Source: Escherichia coli
GTDB taxonomy: Bacteria > Pseudomonadota > Gammaproteobacteria > Enterobacterales > Enterobacteriaceae
Length of the DNA: 32,332 nt
Assembly: GCF_003334335.1 (NCBI RefSeq)
Contig: NZ_QOWQ01000046.1
Reading direction: 5' to 3' (one strand)
Numbering within the stretch: the first letter of the stretch is position 1; every line of letters begins with the position of its first letter. Made by a program: the position numbers. Positions 18,001-24,000 of the stretch are shown here, piece by piece.

Positions 18001-21000
18001 GCCAGCCGGTGAAATAATGGGATCGTCGTTATCCTCCAGTGCGGCGATCAGATTTTTCATCCCTGGAATCGCTTCTTTGATATAACCGCTATTGATCGCA
18101 GGCTGACCGCAGCATCCCTGTTTCTCCGGGAAATTTACGCGACAGCCGAGTTTTTCCAGTAGCAGCACGGAGTCTCGTGCCATTCTTGATTTCAGGGCGT
18201 CACCAATACAGGTGACAAAGAAATTGACATTCACAACTAATACTCCATTACTTCATGCCCATTTATGCCCGATGTTTCCCCCCCACCGGGGGATCAATCA
18301 TCAATAAATATGGCGTTCTTTTTTAATTGGCTAGCAACATACCACCCCTCATTTGTATGACAAATGATAATCTTTCATCCAAACGTCAAATGCAATAACT
18401 AATTTTATTTCTTTCGGCATCGCTCACATTTTATGGGGAAATCGACGATCATTTTTGGCATAAGAAATCCATTTAAAAATGGCTACATCCCTTATACCTA
18501 TTCAGAGCTACTTATTCAGGGGTTATTGAGATATACACTGATGGTGTACAAAAAAATCACCGACAATAATCACGTATCAAGTAATAGTCGGGATTTTATT
18601 TAATTGAAGCAATTTAGTTTGCATTTTTATTTAAAAACTGAGCTAGAGTCCATCAGAAAAAATATATAAAGCCCAAACCACCGTTGGAAATAGAAATAGT
18701 TGAAAGGCTCACAACTCCCGGAATGCGGATTATCTTTGCCCTGATTTCTGGCGGTTTTATTCAGGGTGCAAGCTGTCTGACCCTTTCCCGATATTCTCCC
18801 GGGGTACAACCAAACTCGCGGACAAACGCCTTGTGAAAAGATGATTCACTGGCATAGCCTACTGACTCAGCGATCACCACAACAGGGAGCGTTTCCCGGG
18901 AAAACATCTGGGCCGCTATTTGTAGACGCAACTTTGTTAATACAGCCAGCGGCGTGGTTCCGGAAACATCACGGAAAAGCTGGGCAAAACTTGCCCGGGA
19001 CATGTGAGCGATGCTGGCCAGCGATTCGACGGTCCAGGCGTGTCCTGGCATTTCCAGCATTTGCTGTATTACCGCACCAAGACGTGGATGCAGAAGCAAA
19101 CTGAGAATGTTTTTCTCAGTATTAACCTGTGCAATCCACTCACGCACCGCGAGGGTAAAGAATGTAGCGCAGATCTGGCTACACAGTGCATCCACTCCCG
19201 GCATTGCCGATCTGGATTCCTGTTGTAAAAACGGGATCGCCTCCCTCAGCCAGTTATATTCCACGCTGTGGTTAACCGGTGCTAAAAACAGCGTTTCCGG
19301 CAAAGACGTTAAAAAATAACGCGCCGAATGTTGCAACCGAAGAGTGCCGCAGACAATACAGGTCGATTCATTATCGACATGACTCAGGCGATGAGCTGAA
19401 TTTTGTGGTAGCAGGACCACATTTCCCGGGCGTAATGTAAAAATCTCCCCCGTCGGCATTTCCAGCTTCGCCGCTCCTTGCGTTAACGCATGCCAACGAA
19501 TAACCGATAATTCCCCGGCACCATGTGGAAGCTGCCAGTCACTTCCTAACACGCAATTCTTATCGATCGTTCCTTGTGGAGCGTTAAGCATCAACAAACG
19601 GCTAAGGGCATCCATATCAGACTCCTGAGTGGTTTTTGATTACAAACACCAACAATCTTAGTAAATAACTAATCTAATACCATCAAATAGTTAATCATGA
19701 TTTTTGTTTTGTGATTCTGATTAAGAAAAAGAAAATATCAGACGATAAGACAAAATATCAAGCGTTGTGAAGAAATGTTATTTGCTCTTTTGCGTCTATA
19801 GTCATGATGTCAAATGAACGCGTTTCGACAGGAAATCATCATGAATAAATATCAGGCAGTGATTATTGGTTTTGGCAAGGCTGGAAAAACATTAGCCGTC
19901 ACGCTGGCAAAAGCAGGTTGGCGAGTGGCTCTCATCGAACAATCAAATGCAATGTATGGCGGGACCTGTATTAATATCGGCTGCATCCCAACCAAAACAT
20001 TGGTTCATGACGCACAGCAGCACACAGATTTTGTCCGTGCCATACAGCGTAAAAATGAAGTGGTTAATTTTTTACGTAATAAGAATTTTCATAATCTTGC
20101 GGATATGCCCAATATCGACGTGATCGACGGCCAGGCGGAGTTTATCAATAATCATAGCCTGCGTGTTCATCGGCCTGAGGGAAATCTGGAAATTCATGGC
20201 GAGAAAATTTTTATTAATACCGGTGCACAAACCGTGGTTCCGCCAATTCCTGGAATTACCACCACGCCAGGAGTATATGACAGCACCGGATTACTTAATC
20301 TAAAAGAATTGCCTGGGCATTTAGGTATTTTGGGCGGCGGATATATTGGCGTTGAGTTCGCCTCTATGTTCGCTAATTTTGGCAGCAAGGTAACCATTTT
20401 AGAAGCAGCTTCGCTGTTTTTGCCTCGGGAAGATCGGGATATTGCTGATAATATCGCGACGATTTTACGCGATCAGGGCGTCGATATTATCCTCAATGCC
20501 CATGTGGAGCGAATCAGTCACCATGAAAATCAAGTGCAAGTGCATAGCGAGCACGCCCAACTGGCGGTGGATGCACTGTTAATAGCTTCCGGTCGTCAAC
20601 CGGCTACCGCTTCGTTACATCCAGAAAATGCCGGTATCGCAGTAAACGAGCGCGGGGCAATTGTCGTTGACAAGCGATTACATACCACCGCAGACAATAT
20701 TTGGGCGATGGGAGATGTTACCGGCGGGCTGCAATTTACTTACATATCACTGGATGATTACCGCATTGTACGTGATGAGTTACTGGGTGAAGGCAAACGT
20801 AGTACTGATGATCGGAAAAATGTGCCTTATTCCGTATTTATGACACCGCCCCTGTCCAGGGTTGGTATGACAGAAGAACAAGCCAGAGAGAGTGGTGCTG
20901 ATATTCAGGTGGTGACATTGCCTGTAGCTGCAATTCCGCGTGCCAGAGTGATGAATGATACTCGTGGGGTATTAAAAGCGATTGTTGATAATAAAACCCA

Positions 21001-24000
21001 ACGTATGTTAGGGGCATCACTGCTGTGTGTTGACTCCCACGAGATGATCAATATAGTGAAAATGGTGATGGATGCCGGGCTGCCTTATAGCATATTACGC
21101 GATCAGATATTTACTCATCCGTCGATGAGCGAATCACTCAATGATCTATTTTCATTAGTCAAATAAACTCAAAATCAGACGCCAGAACAAATATTCTGGC
21201 GTCTCAGAGAAAAGAATCTTATTAATTCTCTGTTACTCTATAACTTCTTAATCACTTCATTGATGGTATTTTATATGTTTAAAAAATCTGTTTTATTTGC
21301 AACACTATTATCTGGCGTTATGGCATTTTCCACCAATGCAGATGATAAAATAATTCTGAAACATATCAGCGTCTCGTCAGTATCAGCATCACCGACAGTT
21401 CTGGAGGATACCATTGCTGATATAGCCAGAAAATATAATGCTTCATCCTGGAAAGTCACATCGATGCGAATTGATAATAATTCAACCGCAACAGCAGTAT
21501 TGTATAAATAAGGATGTTCACAATGGAAAAATACCTGCACCTGTTAAGTCGGGGAGATAAAATTGGCCTGACATTGATTCGTCTGAGTATTGCAATTGTT
21601 TTTATGTGGATTGGGTTATTAAAGTTTGTCCCTTACGAGGCAGACAGCATTACACCATTCGTCGCAAACAGTCCACTAATGTCGTTCTTTTATGAACACC
21701 CGGAAGACTATAAACAGTATCTGACTCACGAAGGCGAATACAAACCAGAAGCAAGGGCATGGCAAACGGCCAATAATACCTATGGTTTTTCCAACGGTCT
21801 TGGCGTCGTGGAGGTGATTATTGCTCTGCTGGTTTTGGCTAATCCTGTCAATCGCTGGTTAGGTTTATTGGGAGGACTGATGGCATTTACCACGCCGCTG
21901 GTAACACTCTCATTTTTAATCACCACCCCGGAGGCATGGGTACCCGCATTGGGTGACGCTCATCATGGTTTCCCTTATTTATCCGGTGCTGGTCGCCTGG
22001 TATTGAAAGATACTCTGATGCTGGCAGGTGCAGTCATGATAATGGCAGATTCGGCGCGGGAAATTCTTAAACAACGCAGTAATGAATCCAGTTCAACGTT
22101 AAAAACTGAATATTGATAATCCGAACACTGTCTGTTGTTCACTTTTTCAGGCGTCAGGCCCCCTTTCTGATGATGAAGCCTGACGCCATATTACCGGAGA
22201 TATGACAGAGTGAAGATCAATATCACTCCCTGTTAAAAGGTTTTTGTCGTCTTAGGTAAAATACATGATTAATATCAATCATGTATTTTTACAGCAAGAC
22301 AACCACGAACAAATTCAGGATTAAAATGTTTTACCGACTCCCCAACATAACCCAAATCAAGCGAACTAATTTGTGCCATTTCTTTATCTGTCAGTGAGAA
22401 ATCGATTTTTGATGGGCATCTGCAATACTCTGAAGCAGACTATACGGAAAATTCCACTGTCAGTCCCTCCATTAGGCATGAACAATGAGTCTACGTTAAA
22501 ACGTAACCTCAAAGTAGTATGTGGATTTTGATATCACTTATGCAAAAAATTCATTAATAATGTAGGACTGAAACCTCTCTATTTTCGGGGACAACGAAGC
22601 AGACGCTACCAGTGCTTTTGCCTTCGCCCTTGCTATTTTTGATACACTTAGGGCCCAGGGTATAACGAAAATGTGCGATATGACAAAGAATTAACGGAGA
22701 ATGAGATGATCAGGCAGAAGATTCTACAGCAGCTCCTGGAGTGGATTGAGTGCAATCTTGAGCACCCTATTTCAATCGAAGATATCGCACAGAAATCTGG
22801 CTACAGCAGACGCAACATCCAGCTTCTGTTCCGAAATTTCATGCATGTGCCTTTGGGAGAATACATTCGCAAACGAAGGCTTTGTCGTGCCGCCATTCTT
22901 GTCCGGCTCACCGCGAAATCTATGCTTGATATTGCACTCTCTTTGCATTTTGATTCACAGCAGTCATTCAGCCGCGAATTTAAAAAGTTATTCGGCTGCT
23001 CTCCCCGTGAATACCGCCACCGTGATTATTGGGATCTCGCAAATATCTTCCCTTCTTTTTTAATACGTCAACAGCAAAAGACGGAGTGTAGATTAATCAA
23101 CTTTCCTGAGACACCTATTTTTGGCAACTCATTTAAATATGACATTGAAGTGTCGAATAAATCACCGGATGAAGAAGTCAAACTACGACGTCATCATTTA
23201 GCCAGATGTATGAAGAATTTTAAGACGGATATCTATTTCGTTTCCACGTTTGAACCGTCAACAAAATCGGTCGATTTGCTCACGGTTGAAACTTTTGCTG
23301 GTACGGTATGTGAATATGCTGACATGCCAAAAGAGTGGACAACGACCCGAGGACTTTATGCCTCTTTCCGTTATGAAGGAAACTGGGAAAATTATCCTGA
23401 CTGGGTGCGTAACATCTATCTGATAGAGTTACCTGCCAGGGGGTTAGCCAGAGTGAACGGCAGCGATATTGAGCGCTTTTATTACAATGAAGATTTCGTA
23501 GAAAAGGATGGCAATGATGTTGTTTGCGAAATTTTTATTCCCGTTCGTCCGGTTTAGTTGGTCACTATCTCTTATTGAGTTTTATCCTTGCCTGATACTA
23601 TTTAATCAGTATCAGGCAAGGTATTCAGTGAATAATGGCGTTGAATATTTCAACACCATTATTCTTTATTAGATCGTAACTTTCATACTATTCAAATTAT
23701 GGCATCTCCTCCTCGCCATTTTCAGTCTCTGCAGCAACGGCGTTAATTGTCACCTTCACAGGCGTCATTTCGTACCCGCCATACGTCAGTGCGTTGAATG
23801 TGAACGTATAGACACCTGGCTTGCTGGTACTAAATGTACGCGTGATTTTCCCACCTGAGAAATGGTCAGCCTTCGACGGCAGGAATTGATAATCCTTCTC
23901 CGTCACTCCTTCCGGAGCCTCAATGTCGACCCACATACTTCCTCCTACGGGATTGACTCCCGCCATCAGGGTAACCGTCATTGTTGCAGTAGTCTTCCCG

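What the first reader, a model, noticed from the sequence alone, without database searches (positions are those of the whole stretch)
18761..22116. Complete rclR / rclABC reactive-chlorine resistance locus
The divergent AraC-type redox sensor (RclR) and the flavin disulfide reductase, periplasmic and membrane proteins (RclABC) are all intact. The 225-bp divergent intergenic region (19616-19840) should contain the RclR binding site. This is a stress-defence module and not a novel one.
Basis: established knowledge. Interest (0 to 1): 0.3.

Follow-up and report, generated by a model that had tools for sequence, protein, structure and literature searches.

The report
Known E. coli rclR–rclABC oxidant-defence locus
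This is the well-studied E. coli rclR/rclABC bleach and hypothiocyanite defence locus, intact and identical to the laboratory strain; the only new lead is a second candidate regulator-binding site and promoter just before rclB.

Summary
Window 18235-22672 is 100% identical to E. coli K-12. It carries uninterrupted rclR (18761-19615, minus strand), rclA (19841-21166), rclB (21275-21511) and rclC (21523-22116). All four proteins score above the NCBIfam cut-offs for their own families. RclR keeps the redox pair Cys21/Cys89 and RclA keeps the catalytic pair Cys43/Cys48. The locus is already known, so interest is low. One update: RclA is now regarded mainly as a near diffusion-limited hypothiocyanite (HOSCN) reductase, not only a chlorine-resistance enzyme.

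1. Footprinting across 15 species places a candidate RclR operator at 19740-19777 (AGACGATAAGACAAAA-N6-GCGTT-N3-GAAGAAA). It starts 57 nt before a conserved -10 hexamer, TATAGT, at 19797-19802.

2. The same two-part box, with the same 57-nt spacing to a conserved TAnnnT hexamer (TACTCT, 21234-21239), lies in the rclA-rclB spacer at 21177-21214. A matrix built without any Escherichia sequence ranks it second in the whole window at 20.6 bits; 5 Mb of AT-rich random sequence gave no score that high. In Salmonella, Citrobacter and Hafnia a canonical terminator precedes this box.

This suggests that rclBC has its own RclR-dependent promoter. That would explain the published, unexplained tenfold-lower rclB/rclC mRNA. 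It is an inference (about 0.6), not shown.

The parts
18761..19615 (-). rclR: AraC-family redox-sensing activator, 284 aa, with Cys21 and Cys89 present
   Evidence: ORF and translation. NCBIfam NF040475 at 557 bits against a cut-off of 400. RefSeq annotation of identical DNA. Cys21 and Cys89 are invariant in 19 homologues down to 32% identity, while the other four Cys vary.
19616..19840 (.). 225-bp divergent rclR-rclA spacer, 31% G+C
   Evidence: The alignments of orthologous spacers are A1 and A2.
19740..19777 (+). Candidate RclR operator 1: AGACGATAAGACAAAA-TATCAA-GCGTT-GTG-AAGAAATG, about -69 to -32 relative to the predicted rclA transcription start
   Evidence: This is the only strongly conserved block in the spacer across Escherichia, Salmonella, Citrobacter, Raoultella, Proteus and Pantoea, and also in Hafnia and Yersinia. 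It scores 31.9 bits with a matrix built without Escherichia sequences and is the top hit in the window. RclR binding is inferred, not shown.
19797..19802 (+). Predicted -10 hexamer of the rclA promoter (TATAGT). There is no good -35, as expected for an activator-dependent promoter
   Evidence: A at position 2 and T at position 6 are invariant in 13 species. The spacing of 57 nt from box start to hexamer start is fixed, shifted by 1 nt in Pantoea. The transcription start near 19807-19809 is inferred.
19841..21166 (+). rclA: flavoprotein disulfide reductase (HOSCN reductase and Cu(II) reductase), 441 aa, active-site Cys43/Cys48
   Evidence: NF040477 at 870 bits against 740. Full-length match to PDB 6KGY/6KYY at E 2.4e-296. 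Function from PMC9335216 and PMC7527725.
21177..21214 (+). Candidate RclR operator 2: AGACGCCAGAACAAAT-ATTCTG-GCGTC-TCA-GAGAAAAG. Its first 28 nt also form a perfect 11-bp inverted repeat (21177-21204)
   Evidence: Second-best hit in the whole window at 20.6 bits; the next hit scores 11.5. The maximum over 100 shuffled windows was 15.5, and no hit reached 20.6 bits in 5 Mb of AT-rich random sequence. The same element with the same spacing occurs upstream of rclB or rclC in E. albertii, four Salmonella, Citrobacter sp., Hafnia and Yersinia. The hairpin was detected, but covariation does not support it.
21234..21239 (+). Predicted -10 hexamer of an internal rclB promoter (TACTCT), 57 nt from the start of box 2
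   Evidence: T, A and T at hexamer positions 1, 2 and 6 are invariant in 8 species. The spacing is identical to the rclA promoter. RpoD-holoenzyme genomic SELEX reported a peak in the ykgC-ykgI spacer, with the unit listed as 'ykgIB' (PMC3946193).
21275..21511 (+). rclB: small periplasmic DUF1471 protein, 78 aa, no cysteine
   Evidence: NF040474 at 153 bits against 100. PF07338 on orthologues.
21523..22116 (+). rclC: DUF417 inner-membrane protein, 197 aa, no cysteine
   Evidence: NF040476 at 340 bits against 275. PF04224 on orthologues.
22150..22187 (+). 10-bp-stem hairpin (GGCGTCAGGC...GCCTGACGCC) 34 nt after the rclC stop. It may mark the end of the transcript, but it has no clear T-run
   Evidence: Fold (z = -4.5 for the 171-nt region). 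The terminator scan did not call it. Its function is not established.

Best explanation
This is the known E. coli rclR/rclABC locus, identical in sequence to the K-12 locus on which the published work was done.

Mechanism from the literature (not tested here): RclR, an AraC-family regulator with an N-terminal cupin-like sensor, is oxidised by HOCl, chloramines or HOSCN at Cys21 and Cys89 to an intramolecular disulfide. It then binds promoter DNA and activates rclA, rclB and rclC by more than 100-fold. RclA uses NAD(P)H, FAD and the Cys43/Cys48 pair to reduce HOSCN to thiocyanate, and it also reduces Cu(II). RclB (periplasm) and RclC (inner membrane) are required for resistance by an unknown mechanism.

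Inferred here: RclR recognises a two-part box of about 37 bp, AGACG-N4-RACAAAW-N6-GCGTY-N3-GAnAAA. The box probably consists of two half-sites about 21 bp apart. It abuts the -35 region of a promoter that lacks a good -35, in the class-II manner typical of AraC-family activators.

There are two copies of this arrangement, with identical spacing: one before rclA (box at 19740, -10 at 19797) and one before rclB (box at 21177, -10 at 21234). On this reading rclA and rclBC are two RclR-dependent transcription units. The second has the weaker box and the weaker -10.

Probabilities: locus identity and published mechanism about 0.98; box 1 is the RclR operator about 0.8; functional RclR-dependent rclB promoter about 0.6.
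For: Identity:
- 100% DNA identity to K-12, with matching RefSeq annotation.
- All four NCBIfam family models exceeded.
- RclA gives a full-length match to PDB 6KGY.
- Cys21/Cys89 and Cys43/Cys48 are present. Cys21 and Cys89 are invariant in 19 homologues.

Mechanism from papers:
- PMC9335216, PMC7464077, PMC9600549, PMC12096828.

Operator 1:
- It is the only conserved block in the divergent spacer across 8 genera, at a fixed distance from a conserved -10.

Operator 2 and the rclB promoter:
- A matrix built only from non-Escherichia rclA-promoter boxes scores 21177 at 20.6 bits, second in 64,590 positions. The next hit scores 11.8 (11.5 in the rescan), and the shuffled-window maximum was 15.5.
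- No hit reached 20.6 bits in 5 Mb of AT-rich Markov sequence on both strands.
- In 7 of 8 first-set loci with rclBC after rclA, the second-best hit lies before rclB with the same N6/N30 spacing to TAnnnT. None of the 5 loci lacking rclBC has a second hit.
- Hafnia (19.9 bits) and Yersinia (27.3 bits) show the same arrangement.
- Salmonella, Citrobacter and Hafnia have a canonical hairpin-plus-T-run terminator between the rclA stop and this box.
- In Shimwellia and Pseudomonas, where rclC is directly divergent from rclR, the best hit in about 10 kb lies in that spacer in the right orientation.
- Both boxes are invariant in distant E. coli lineages.
- RpoD holoenzyme binds the ykgC-ykgI spacer in vitro (PMC3946193).
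- rclB and rclC RNA is about tenfold lower than rclA RNA, which the authors could not explain (PMC12096828).
Against: - No binding, footprint or transcription-start data for either box were available to me. The primary RclR paper (Parker 2013) is not in the held library, so a mapped site could exist there.
- Raoultella has rclBC but no recognisable box 2. The Citrobacter sp. and S. arizonae boxes are weak, at 9.9 and 9.3 bits.
- The matrix finds nothing in the Enterobacter-type rclR|rclBC locus or the Serratia locus.
- In E. coli, box 2 is also a perfect 11-bp inverted repeat that folds stably in RNA. An RNA-level role could on its own explain the lower rclBC mRNA.
- All current literature treats rclABC as one operon driven from the rclA promoter.
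- The proposed rclB -10 (TACTCT) matches only 3 of 6 consensus positions.
Confidence: 0.9

Rival explanations
1. There is a single rclABC operon. The element at 21177-21204 acts only at the RNA level, as a stem-loop that stabilises the upstream rclA segment or partly blocks read-through. On this view its resemblance to the rclA-promoter box is incidental.
For: The 11-bp G+C-rich stem is perfect. The 121-nt spacer folds at -26.1 kcal/mol against -13.8 for shuffles (z = -4.3), with this hairpin in both the minimum-energy and centroid structures. The literature model is one operon. Lower rclB/rclC RNA would follow from differential stability.
Against: No T-run follows the stem on the plus strand, and the terminator scan calls it only on the minus strand. 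There is no covariation: 8 of 11 pairs depart only by unpaired cells, and the score is no better than shuffles. The stem is absent in Hafnia and reduced to 5 bp in Yersinia, yet the box positions stay conserved. This view does not explain the identical 57-nt spacing to a conserved TAnnnT, or the true terminators upstream of the box in three genera.
Confidence: 0.3
2. Box 2 is a vestige. An rclBC cassette that once sat directly next to rclR (as in the Enterobacter-type, Shimwellia and Pseudomonas loci) was joined to rclA, carrying a promoter that is no longer used in E. coli.
For: Loci in which rclR is directly divergent from rclB or rclC do exist. Raoultella has lost the box while keeping rclBC.
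Against: The box and its spacing are kept across Escherichia, Salmonella, Hafnia and Yersinia, although the surrounding spacer sequence has diverged heavily. It is invariant within E. coli. Terminators upstream of it in three genera would leave rclBC unexpressed if the promoter were dead.
Confidence: 0.08
3. The locus is present but non-functional in this strain because of a cryptic defect.
For: None was found. Flanking genes have suffered deletions: the aldo/keto reductase and the lactate permease survive only as remnants.
Against: The coding and spacer DNA is 100% identical to K-12, in which the system was shown to work. There are no frameshifts and all key cysteines are present.
Confidence: 0.01

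Closest known systems
E. coli K-12 MG1655 rclR (ykgD) / rclA (ykgC) / rclB (ykgI) / rclC (ykgB), b0305-b0301 (Parker et al. 2013; Derke 2020; Meredith 2022; PMC12096828)
   Same: DNA is identical over 18235-22672, including all four genes and both spacers. The proteins, cysteines and layout are the same.
   Different: Nothing differs within the locus. Downstream, this window has an intact ykgA-like regulator and an intact fdeC, whereas the K-12-derived record shows the regulator truncated next to IS3. The source is therefore a close relative rather than MG1655 itself.
Class-II AraC-family activator promoters (AraC at araBAD I1-I2, RhaS, MelR, XylS at Pm). From general knowledge, not tested here
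   Same: The candidate site is about 37 bp and abuts or overlaps a poor -35. It shows internal similarity at a 20-21 bp offset, as expected for two DNA-binding domains bound two helical turns apart.
   Different: The half-site sequences are specific to RclR. Direct- versus inverted-repeat geometry is unresolved, because box 2 also has AGACG...CGTCT dyad symmetry.
Pseudomonas aeruginosa RclR-rclX system (Farrant 2020, PMC7950407)
   Same: It has a homologous HOCl/HOSCN-responsive AraC regulator divergent from its target gene. A Pseudomonas rclR|rclC locus examined here keeps Cys21/Cys89 and has a weak box-like match of 11.4 bits in the divergent spacer.
   Different: The target is a peroxiredoxin (rclX) rather than RclA. 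The regulator is only 32% identical. The P. aeruginosa rclX promoter itself was not examined.
Uropathogenic E. coli RcrR / rcrARB system (PMC9600549)
   Same: It is an HOCl defence module, and it contains a DUF417 membrane protein (RcrB) homologous to RclC.
   Different: It is controlled by a TetR-family repressor that oxidation inactivates, not by an AraC activator. It has no RclA. It is a different locus and is absent from K-12.

Membership tests
RclR (NCBIfam NF040475, reactive chlorine-specific AraC-family regulator) | Full-length match above the curated family cut-off | tested here: met
   557 bits against a cut-off of 400, covering residues 1-283 of 284.
RclR | N-terminal Cupin_6 sensor domain plus C-terminal AraC-type double helix-turn-helix | tested here: met
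   Precomputed Pfam hits PF12852, PF12833 and PF00165 on database proteins 100% identical to the query, and on orthologues.
RclR | Redox-active cysteine pair Cys21 / Cys89 | tested here: met
   Both are present and invariant in 19 homologues down to 32% identity, whereas Cys86, 145, 149 and 270 vary. Their role is described in PMC7464077.
RclR | Gene divergent from its target gene, with a shared regulatory spacer | tested here: met
   rclR (minus strand) and rclA (plus strand) are separated by 225 bp. The same layout occurs in 15 other loci.
RclR | Oxidant-dependent DNA binding and activation | not testable with these tools
   Known for the identical K-12 protein from the literature. Only a candidate operator could be inferred here.
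RclA (NCBIfam NF040477; group I flavoprotein disulfide reductase) | Full-length match above the cut-off and to the solved RclA structure | tested here: met
   870 bits against 740. PDB 6KGY/6KYY at E 2.4e-296 over residues 1-441.
RclA | Active-site CxxxxC (Cys43, Cys48) | tested here: met
   The motif GGTCINIGCIP places Cys at 43 and 48, with the non-catalytic Cys396 also present. Their requirement for activity is shown in PMC9335216.
RclA | NAD(P)H-dependent HOSCN and Cu(II) reductase activity | not testable with these tools
   Published for the identical protein.
RclB (NF040474; DUF1471/YhcN-BhsA family) | Match above the cut-off; small secreted protein directly upstream of rclC | tested here: met
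   153 bits against 100. It is 78 aa with a hydrophobic N-terminal leader ending in an AFSTNA motif (read by eye, no signal-peptide predictor was run). It lies 11 nt before rclC.
RclC (NF040476; DUF417) | Match above the cut-off | tested here: met
   340 bits against 275. PF04224 on homologues.
'rclABC is one operon from the rclA promoter' (literature model) | No terminator and no promoter between rclA and rclB | tested here: inconclusive
   E. coli has no canonical plus-strand terminator in the spacer. It does have a second RclR-type box plus a conserved -10-like hexamer. Salmonella, Citrobacter and Hafnia have canonical terminators there. RpoD holoenzyme binds this spacer in vitro. Transcript mapping is needed to settle this.

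The most novel reading that the evidence does not exclude
The textbook 'rclABC operon' may really be two RclR-activated transcription units, rclA and rclBC. Each would be driven from a promoter of the same design: a two-part RclR box of about 37 bp starting 57 nt before the -10. This box would define the RclR operator across Enterobacterales and, more weakly, Pseudomonas. That would explain the unexplained tenfold difference between rclA and rclB/rclC mRNA. It would also allow rclBC to move and be regulated independently of rclA, as seen in the Enterobacter-type, Shimwellia and Pseudomonas loci.
Probability: 0.6. Interest if true: 0.4.

Novelty: already known. Interest (0 to 1): 0.22.

Why it matters
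The locus itself needs no further attention. It is a characterised defence against oxidants made by the host immune system (HOCl and HOSCN), and here it is identical to the reference strain.

The useful by-product is a concrete, cheaply testable hypothesis. It gives base-level coordinates for the RclR operator. It also proposes a second RclR-dependent promoter before rclB. The group that studies this system flagged in 2025 that the regulation is 'more complex than previously appreciated' (PMC12096828), and this would address that puzzle.

If confirmed, the box would allow RclR regulons to be predicted in other bacteria. It would also show that RclB and RclC dosage is set separately from RclA.

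Tried and rejected
1. The primary RclR paper (Parker 2013) and Königstorfer 2021 are not held, so I could not check whether a site was mapped there. Broad literature searches for an RclR motif, footprint or ChIP-exo result returned nothing relevant. A search for 'rclB promoter/PrclB/rclBC' found only a plasmid name and the Shimada SELEX table.

More orthologues came from protein look-ups.

3. The consensus promoter scan was uninformative: 13 sites against 11.8 expected, and it called neither proposed -10.

4. The conserved-RNA-hairpin reading of 21177-21204 has no covariation support and is not favoured.

5. Rfam gave no family match anywhere in the window.

6. The rclR promoter and any autoregulation could not be resolved. 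Minus-strand promoter-like matches overlap box 1, but they are not conserved in Pantoea, by my visual inspection of alignment A2.

7. The matrix found no box in the Enterobacter-type or Serratia loci. L015 has its own 21-bp direct repeat with different spacing, which I did not pursue.

8. I considered scanning metagenome contigs for the box pattern. I dropped the idea as likely to be dominated by redundant E. coli and Salmonella hits plus chance matches.

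
Full report
**1. 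Observation**

The ORF list and sequence show four uninterrupted genes at the stated coordinates:

| Gene | Coordinates | Strand | Length | Start | Stop |
|---|---|---|---|---|---|
| rclR | 18761-19615 | minus | 284 aa | ATG | TGA |
| rclA | 19841-21166 | plus | 441 aa | ATG | TAA |
| rclB | 21275-21511 | plus | 78 aa | ATG | TAA |
| rclC | 21523-22116 | plus | 197 aa | ATG | TGA |

The divergent spacer 19616-19840 is exactly 225 bp. It is AT-rich, at 31% G+C against 48.5% for the window.

A megablast of 18235-22672 against 5,426 complete E. coli genomes gave 100% identity to K-12 records. 5,037 genomes carry at least 80% of the stretch. RefSeq annotation of identical DNA (TG1 F' and strain 1283) gives the same boundaries and the names rclR, rclA, rclB and rclC.

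**2. Identity of the parts**

Each protein exceeds the curated NCBIfam cut-off for its own family:
- RclR: 557 bits against 400.
- RclA: 870 against 740.
- RclB: 153 against 100.
- RclC: 340 against 275.

RclA matches the solved E. coli RclA structure 6KGY/6KYY over its full length, at E 2.4e-296.

RclR has Cys at 21, 86, 89, 145, 149 and 270. RclA has Cys at 43, 48 and 396. RclB and RclC have none.

I aligned 19 RclR homologues collected here, from E. albertii (90% identity) down to a Pseudomonas protein (32%). Cys21 and Cys89 are invariant, while the other four cysteines vary. This fits their published role as the redox switch (PMC7464077).

**3. What is known**

According to the literature:
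- RclR binds its target DNA and activates it once HOCl has oxidised its cysteines to an intramolecular disulfide (PMC9600549).
- It induces the rcl genes more than 100- to 500-fold (PMC9335216; PMC7464077).
- RclA was first described as a Cu(II) reductase (PMC7527725). It was later shown to be a hypothiocyanite reductase with kcat 180 s-1, KM 2 µM and kcat/KM 9x10^7 M-1 s-1, dependent on Cys43 and Cys48 (PMC9335216).
- HOSCN induces rclA more than 256-fold.
- RclB (DUF1471, periplasmic) and RclC (DUF417, inner membrane) are needed for HOSCN resistance. Their mechanism is unknown (PMC12096828).

'Reactive-chlorine resistance' is therefore the historical name. HOSCN defence is the better-supported physiological role. 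The locus is already known.

**4. Where RclR probably binds**

I found no base-level operator in the searchable literature. The primary 2013 paper is not held.

I aligned the rclR-rclA spacer from E. coli, E. albertii, four Salmonella, two Citrobacter, Raoultella, two Proteus and two Pantoea. The spacers are otherwise poorly conserved. Pantoea lacks about 90 bp of the region.

One block is kept in all of them. In E. coli it reads AGACGATAAGACAAAA TATCAA GCGTT GTG AAGAAATG, at 19740-19777. Thirty nucleotides after the GCGTT lies a -10-like hexamer, TATAGT, at 19797-19802. Its A at position 2 and T at position 6 are invariant. Box start to hexamer start is 57 nt in every species, shifted by 1 nt in Pantoea.

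There is no good -35. The box would occupy about -69 to -32, the arrangement typical of AraC-family class-II activators (general knowledge). Column similarity between the first 17 positions and the rest of the site peaks at an offset of 20-21 nt: 0.62-0.63 against 0.43-0.52 at other offsets. This weakly suggests two half-sites two helical turns apart.

**5. A second copy before rclB**

A terminator scan flagged a 12-pair hairpin right after the rclA stop, on the minus strand only. The RNA fold confirms a stable stem. Read as DNA, the element is AGACGCCAGAACAAAT ATTCTG GCGTC TCA GAGAAAAG at 21177-21214. That is the same two-part pattern as box 1.

A conserved TAnnnT hexamer, TACTCT at 21234-21239, starts 57 nt from the box start, exactly as at rclA.

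Statistical support:
- A 38-nt weight matrix built only from non-Escherichia rclA-promoter boxes scores the rclA box at 32.3 bits and this site at 20.6 bits. They rank first and second of 64,590 window positions, and the next hit scores 11.8.
- The maximum over 100 shuffled windows was 15.5.
- In 5 Mb of first-order Markov sequence trained on the window's AT-rich spacers, no position on either strand reached 20.6 bits; the maximum was 18.6.

**6. Comparative tests of the second box**

I scanned each locus with its own genus left out of the matrix.

*Loci with rclBC after rclA.* The second-best hit in about 10 kb lies before rclB with identical spacing in every case except Raoultella:

| Species | Score (bits) |
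|---|---|
| E. albertii | 21.4 |
| S. enterica | 16.1 |
| S. bongori | 13.9 |
| S. diarizonae | 16.1 |
| S. arizonae | 9.3 |
| Citrobacter sp. | 9.9 |

*Loci with rclA but no rclBC.* C. freundii, two Proteus and two Pantoea have no second hit.

*New genera reached through RclC homologues*:
- Hafnia has the order rclA, terminator, box (19.9 bits), TATTCT, rclB.
- Yersinia has a 27.3-bit box plus TATTAT in the rclA-rclC spacer.
- Shimwellia (15.0 bits) and Pseudomonas (11.4 bits) have rclC directly divergent from rclR. Their best hit lies in that spacer in the right orientation.

Salmonella, Citrobacter and Hafnia each carry a canonical hairpin-plus-T-run terminator between the rclA stop and the box. 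That arrangement makes sense only if rclBC has its own promoter or depends on read-through.

Both boxes are unchanged in two distant E. coli lineages. In ST131 the hexamer is TACTTT, which still fits TAnnnT.

**7. Hairpin or operator?**

I counted the E. coli stem across nine species. 8 of 11 pairs depart only by unpaired cells, and covariation is no better than shuffles. Hafnia has essentially no stem and Yersinia only 5 bp, yet the box positions (AGAC, ACA, G.GT) are conserved.

On the plus strand no T-run follows the stem, so it is not an intrinsic terminator for rclA transcripts. The conservation is therefore at the sequence level, which favours a protein-binding site. An additional RNA-level role in Escherichia is not excluded.

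**8. Independent experimental hints**

Shimada et al. 2014 used genomic SELEX with RpoD holoenzyme. They list a peak in the ykgC-ykgI spacer (rclA-rclB), name the unit 'ykgIB', and note H-NS binding there (PMC3946193).

The 2025 RNA-seq study found rclB and rclC RNA about tenfold lower than rclA RNA. The authors stated that the regulation must be more complex than a single operon (PMC12096828).

A separate, weaker promoter fits both observations. Its box scores 20.6 bits against 32, and its -10 is TACTCT against TATAGT.

**9. Limits**

- Nothing here shows binding or transcription initiation.
- Raoultella lacks box 2. The matrix fails on the Enterobacter-type and Serratia loci.
- The rclR promoter and any autoregulation remain unresolved.

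I put the second RclR-dependent promoter at about 0.6, the RNA-only hairpin reading at about 0.3, and a vestigial site at under 0.1.

**10. Verdict**

The locus is complete, intact and already known, so interest is low.

The added value is a candidate RclR operator at 19740-19777 and a testable proposal that rclBC has its own RclR-dependent promoter, with the box at 21177-21214 and the -10 at 21234-21239.

Noticed in passing
window 22278-22450 (minus strand): This is a remnant of an aldo/keto reductase gene. Only the C-terminal 42 aa (98% identical) and a short second fragment remain. Other E. coli strains (L002, ST131 L021) carry an intact 289-aa gene here, so this lineage has lost roughly 690-725 bp between rclC and the ykgA-like gene.
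   Followed up: partly
window 18699-18773 (plus strand), within the 526-bp ykgE-rclR spacer: A 25-aa fragment is 84% identical to residues 334-358 of a lactate permease. That gene is intact (517 aa) between rclR and ykgE in E. albertii (L009 5538-7091). E. coli appears to have deleted the gene next to the ykgEFG (lutABC-like) lactate-utilisation genes.
   Followed up: partly
window 22706-23557 and 23697-27953: The ykgA-like AraC/Rob-type regulator and the 1418-aa inverse autotransporter adhesin FdeC (EaeH) are both intact. In the K-12-derived TG1 record the regulator is truncated next to an IS3. The window therefore comes from a close K-12 relative with the layout of strain 1283, not from MG1655 itself.
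   Followed up: partly
window 19619-19634; Salmonella loci (e.g. L010, oriented position 5358); Yersinia L017 3309: The rclR ribosome-binding region reads as a box-like half-site on the plus strand: AGACTCCAGAACAGAT in Salmonella and AGACTCCTGAGTGGTT in E. coli. In Yersinia the rclA-promoter box itself overlaps the rclR Shine-Dalgarno sequence, 4 nt from the start codon. This may bear on rclR autoregulation. It is unexplained.
   Followed up: no
L015 (Enterobacter hormaechei-like metagenome scaffold) 3602-5558 and 5980-7890: An RclR-like regulator (51% identical, Cys21/Cys89 kept) sits divergent from rclB-rclC with no rclA nearby. The spacer has its own 21-bp direct repeat (GAACGAAATGACAGG / GAACGCAAAGAAATT). 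Immediately downstream lie Pycsar-like defence genes (a cyclase with an AGS_C domain plus PycTM), an Mrr-like nuclease and a PIN/MazE pair.
   Followed up: no
L018 (Serratia marcescens) 4006-7400: The gene order differs: rclR divergent from rclC, then DUF302, then an RclA-like reductase. There is no rclB, and the matrix recognises no box. A DUF302 gene also follows rclC in Hafnia (L016 6083-6403).
   Followed up: no
Protein hits P0171-P0240; L020: Many Pseudomonas (fluorescens/koreensis group) proteins and one Massilia protein are 72-79% identical to E. coli RclC. The adjacent RclR-like regulator in L020 is only 32% identical. RclC is much more conserved, or more mobile, than the statement 'mostly confined to Enterobacteriaceae' suggests.
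   Followed up: no
window 22150-22187: A 10-bp-stem hairpin (GGCGTCAGGC...GCCTGACGCC) with an 18-nt loop lies between rclC and the aldo/keto reductase remnant. It has no clear T-run on either strand, and its role as a terminator is uncertain.
   Followed up: partly
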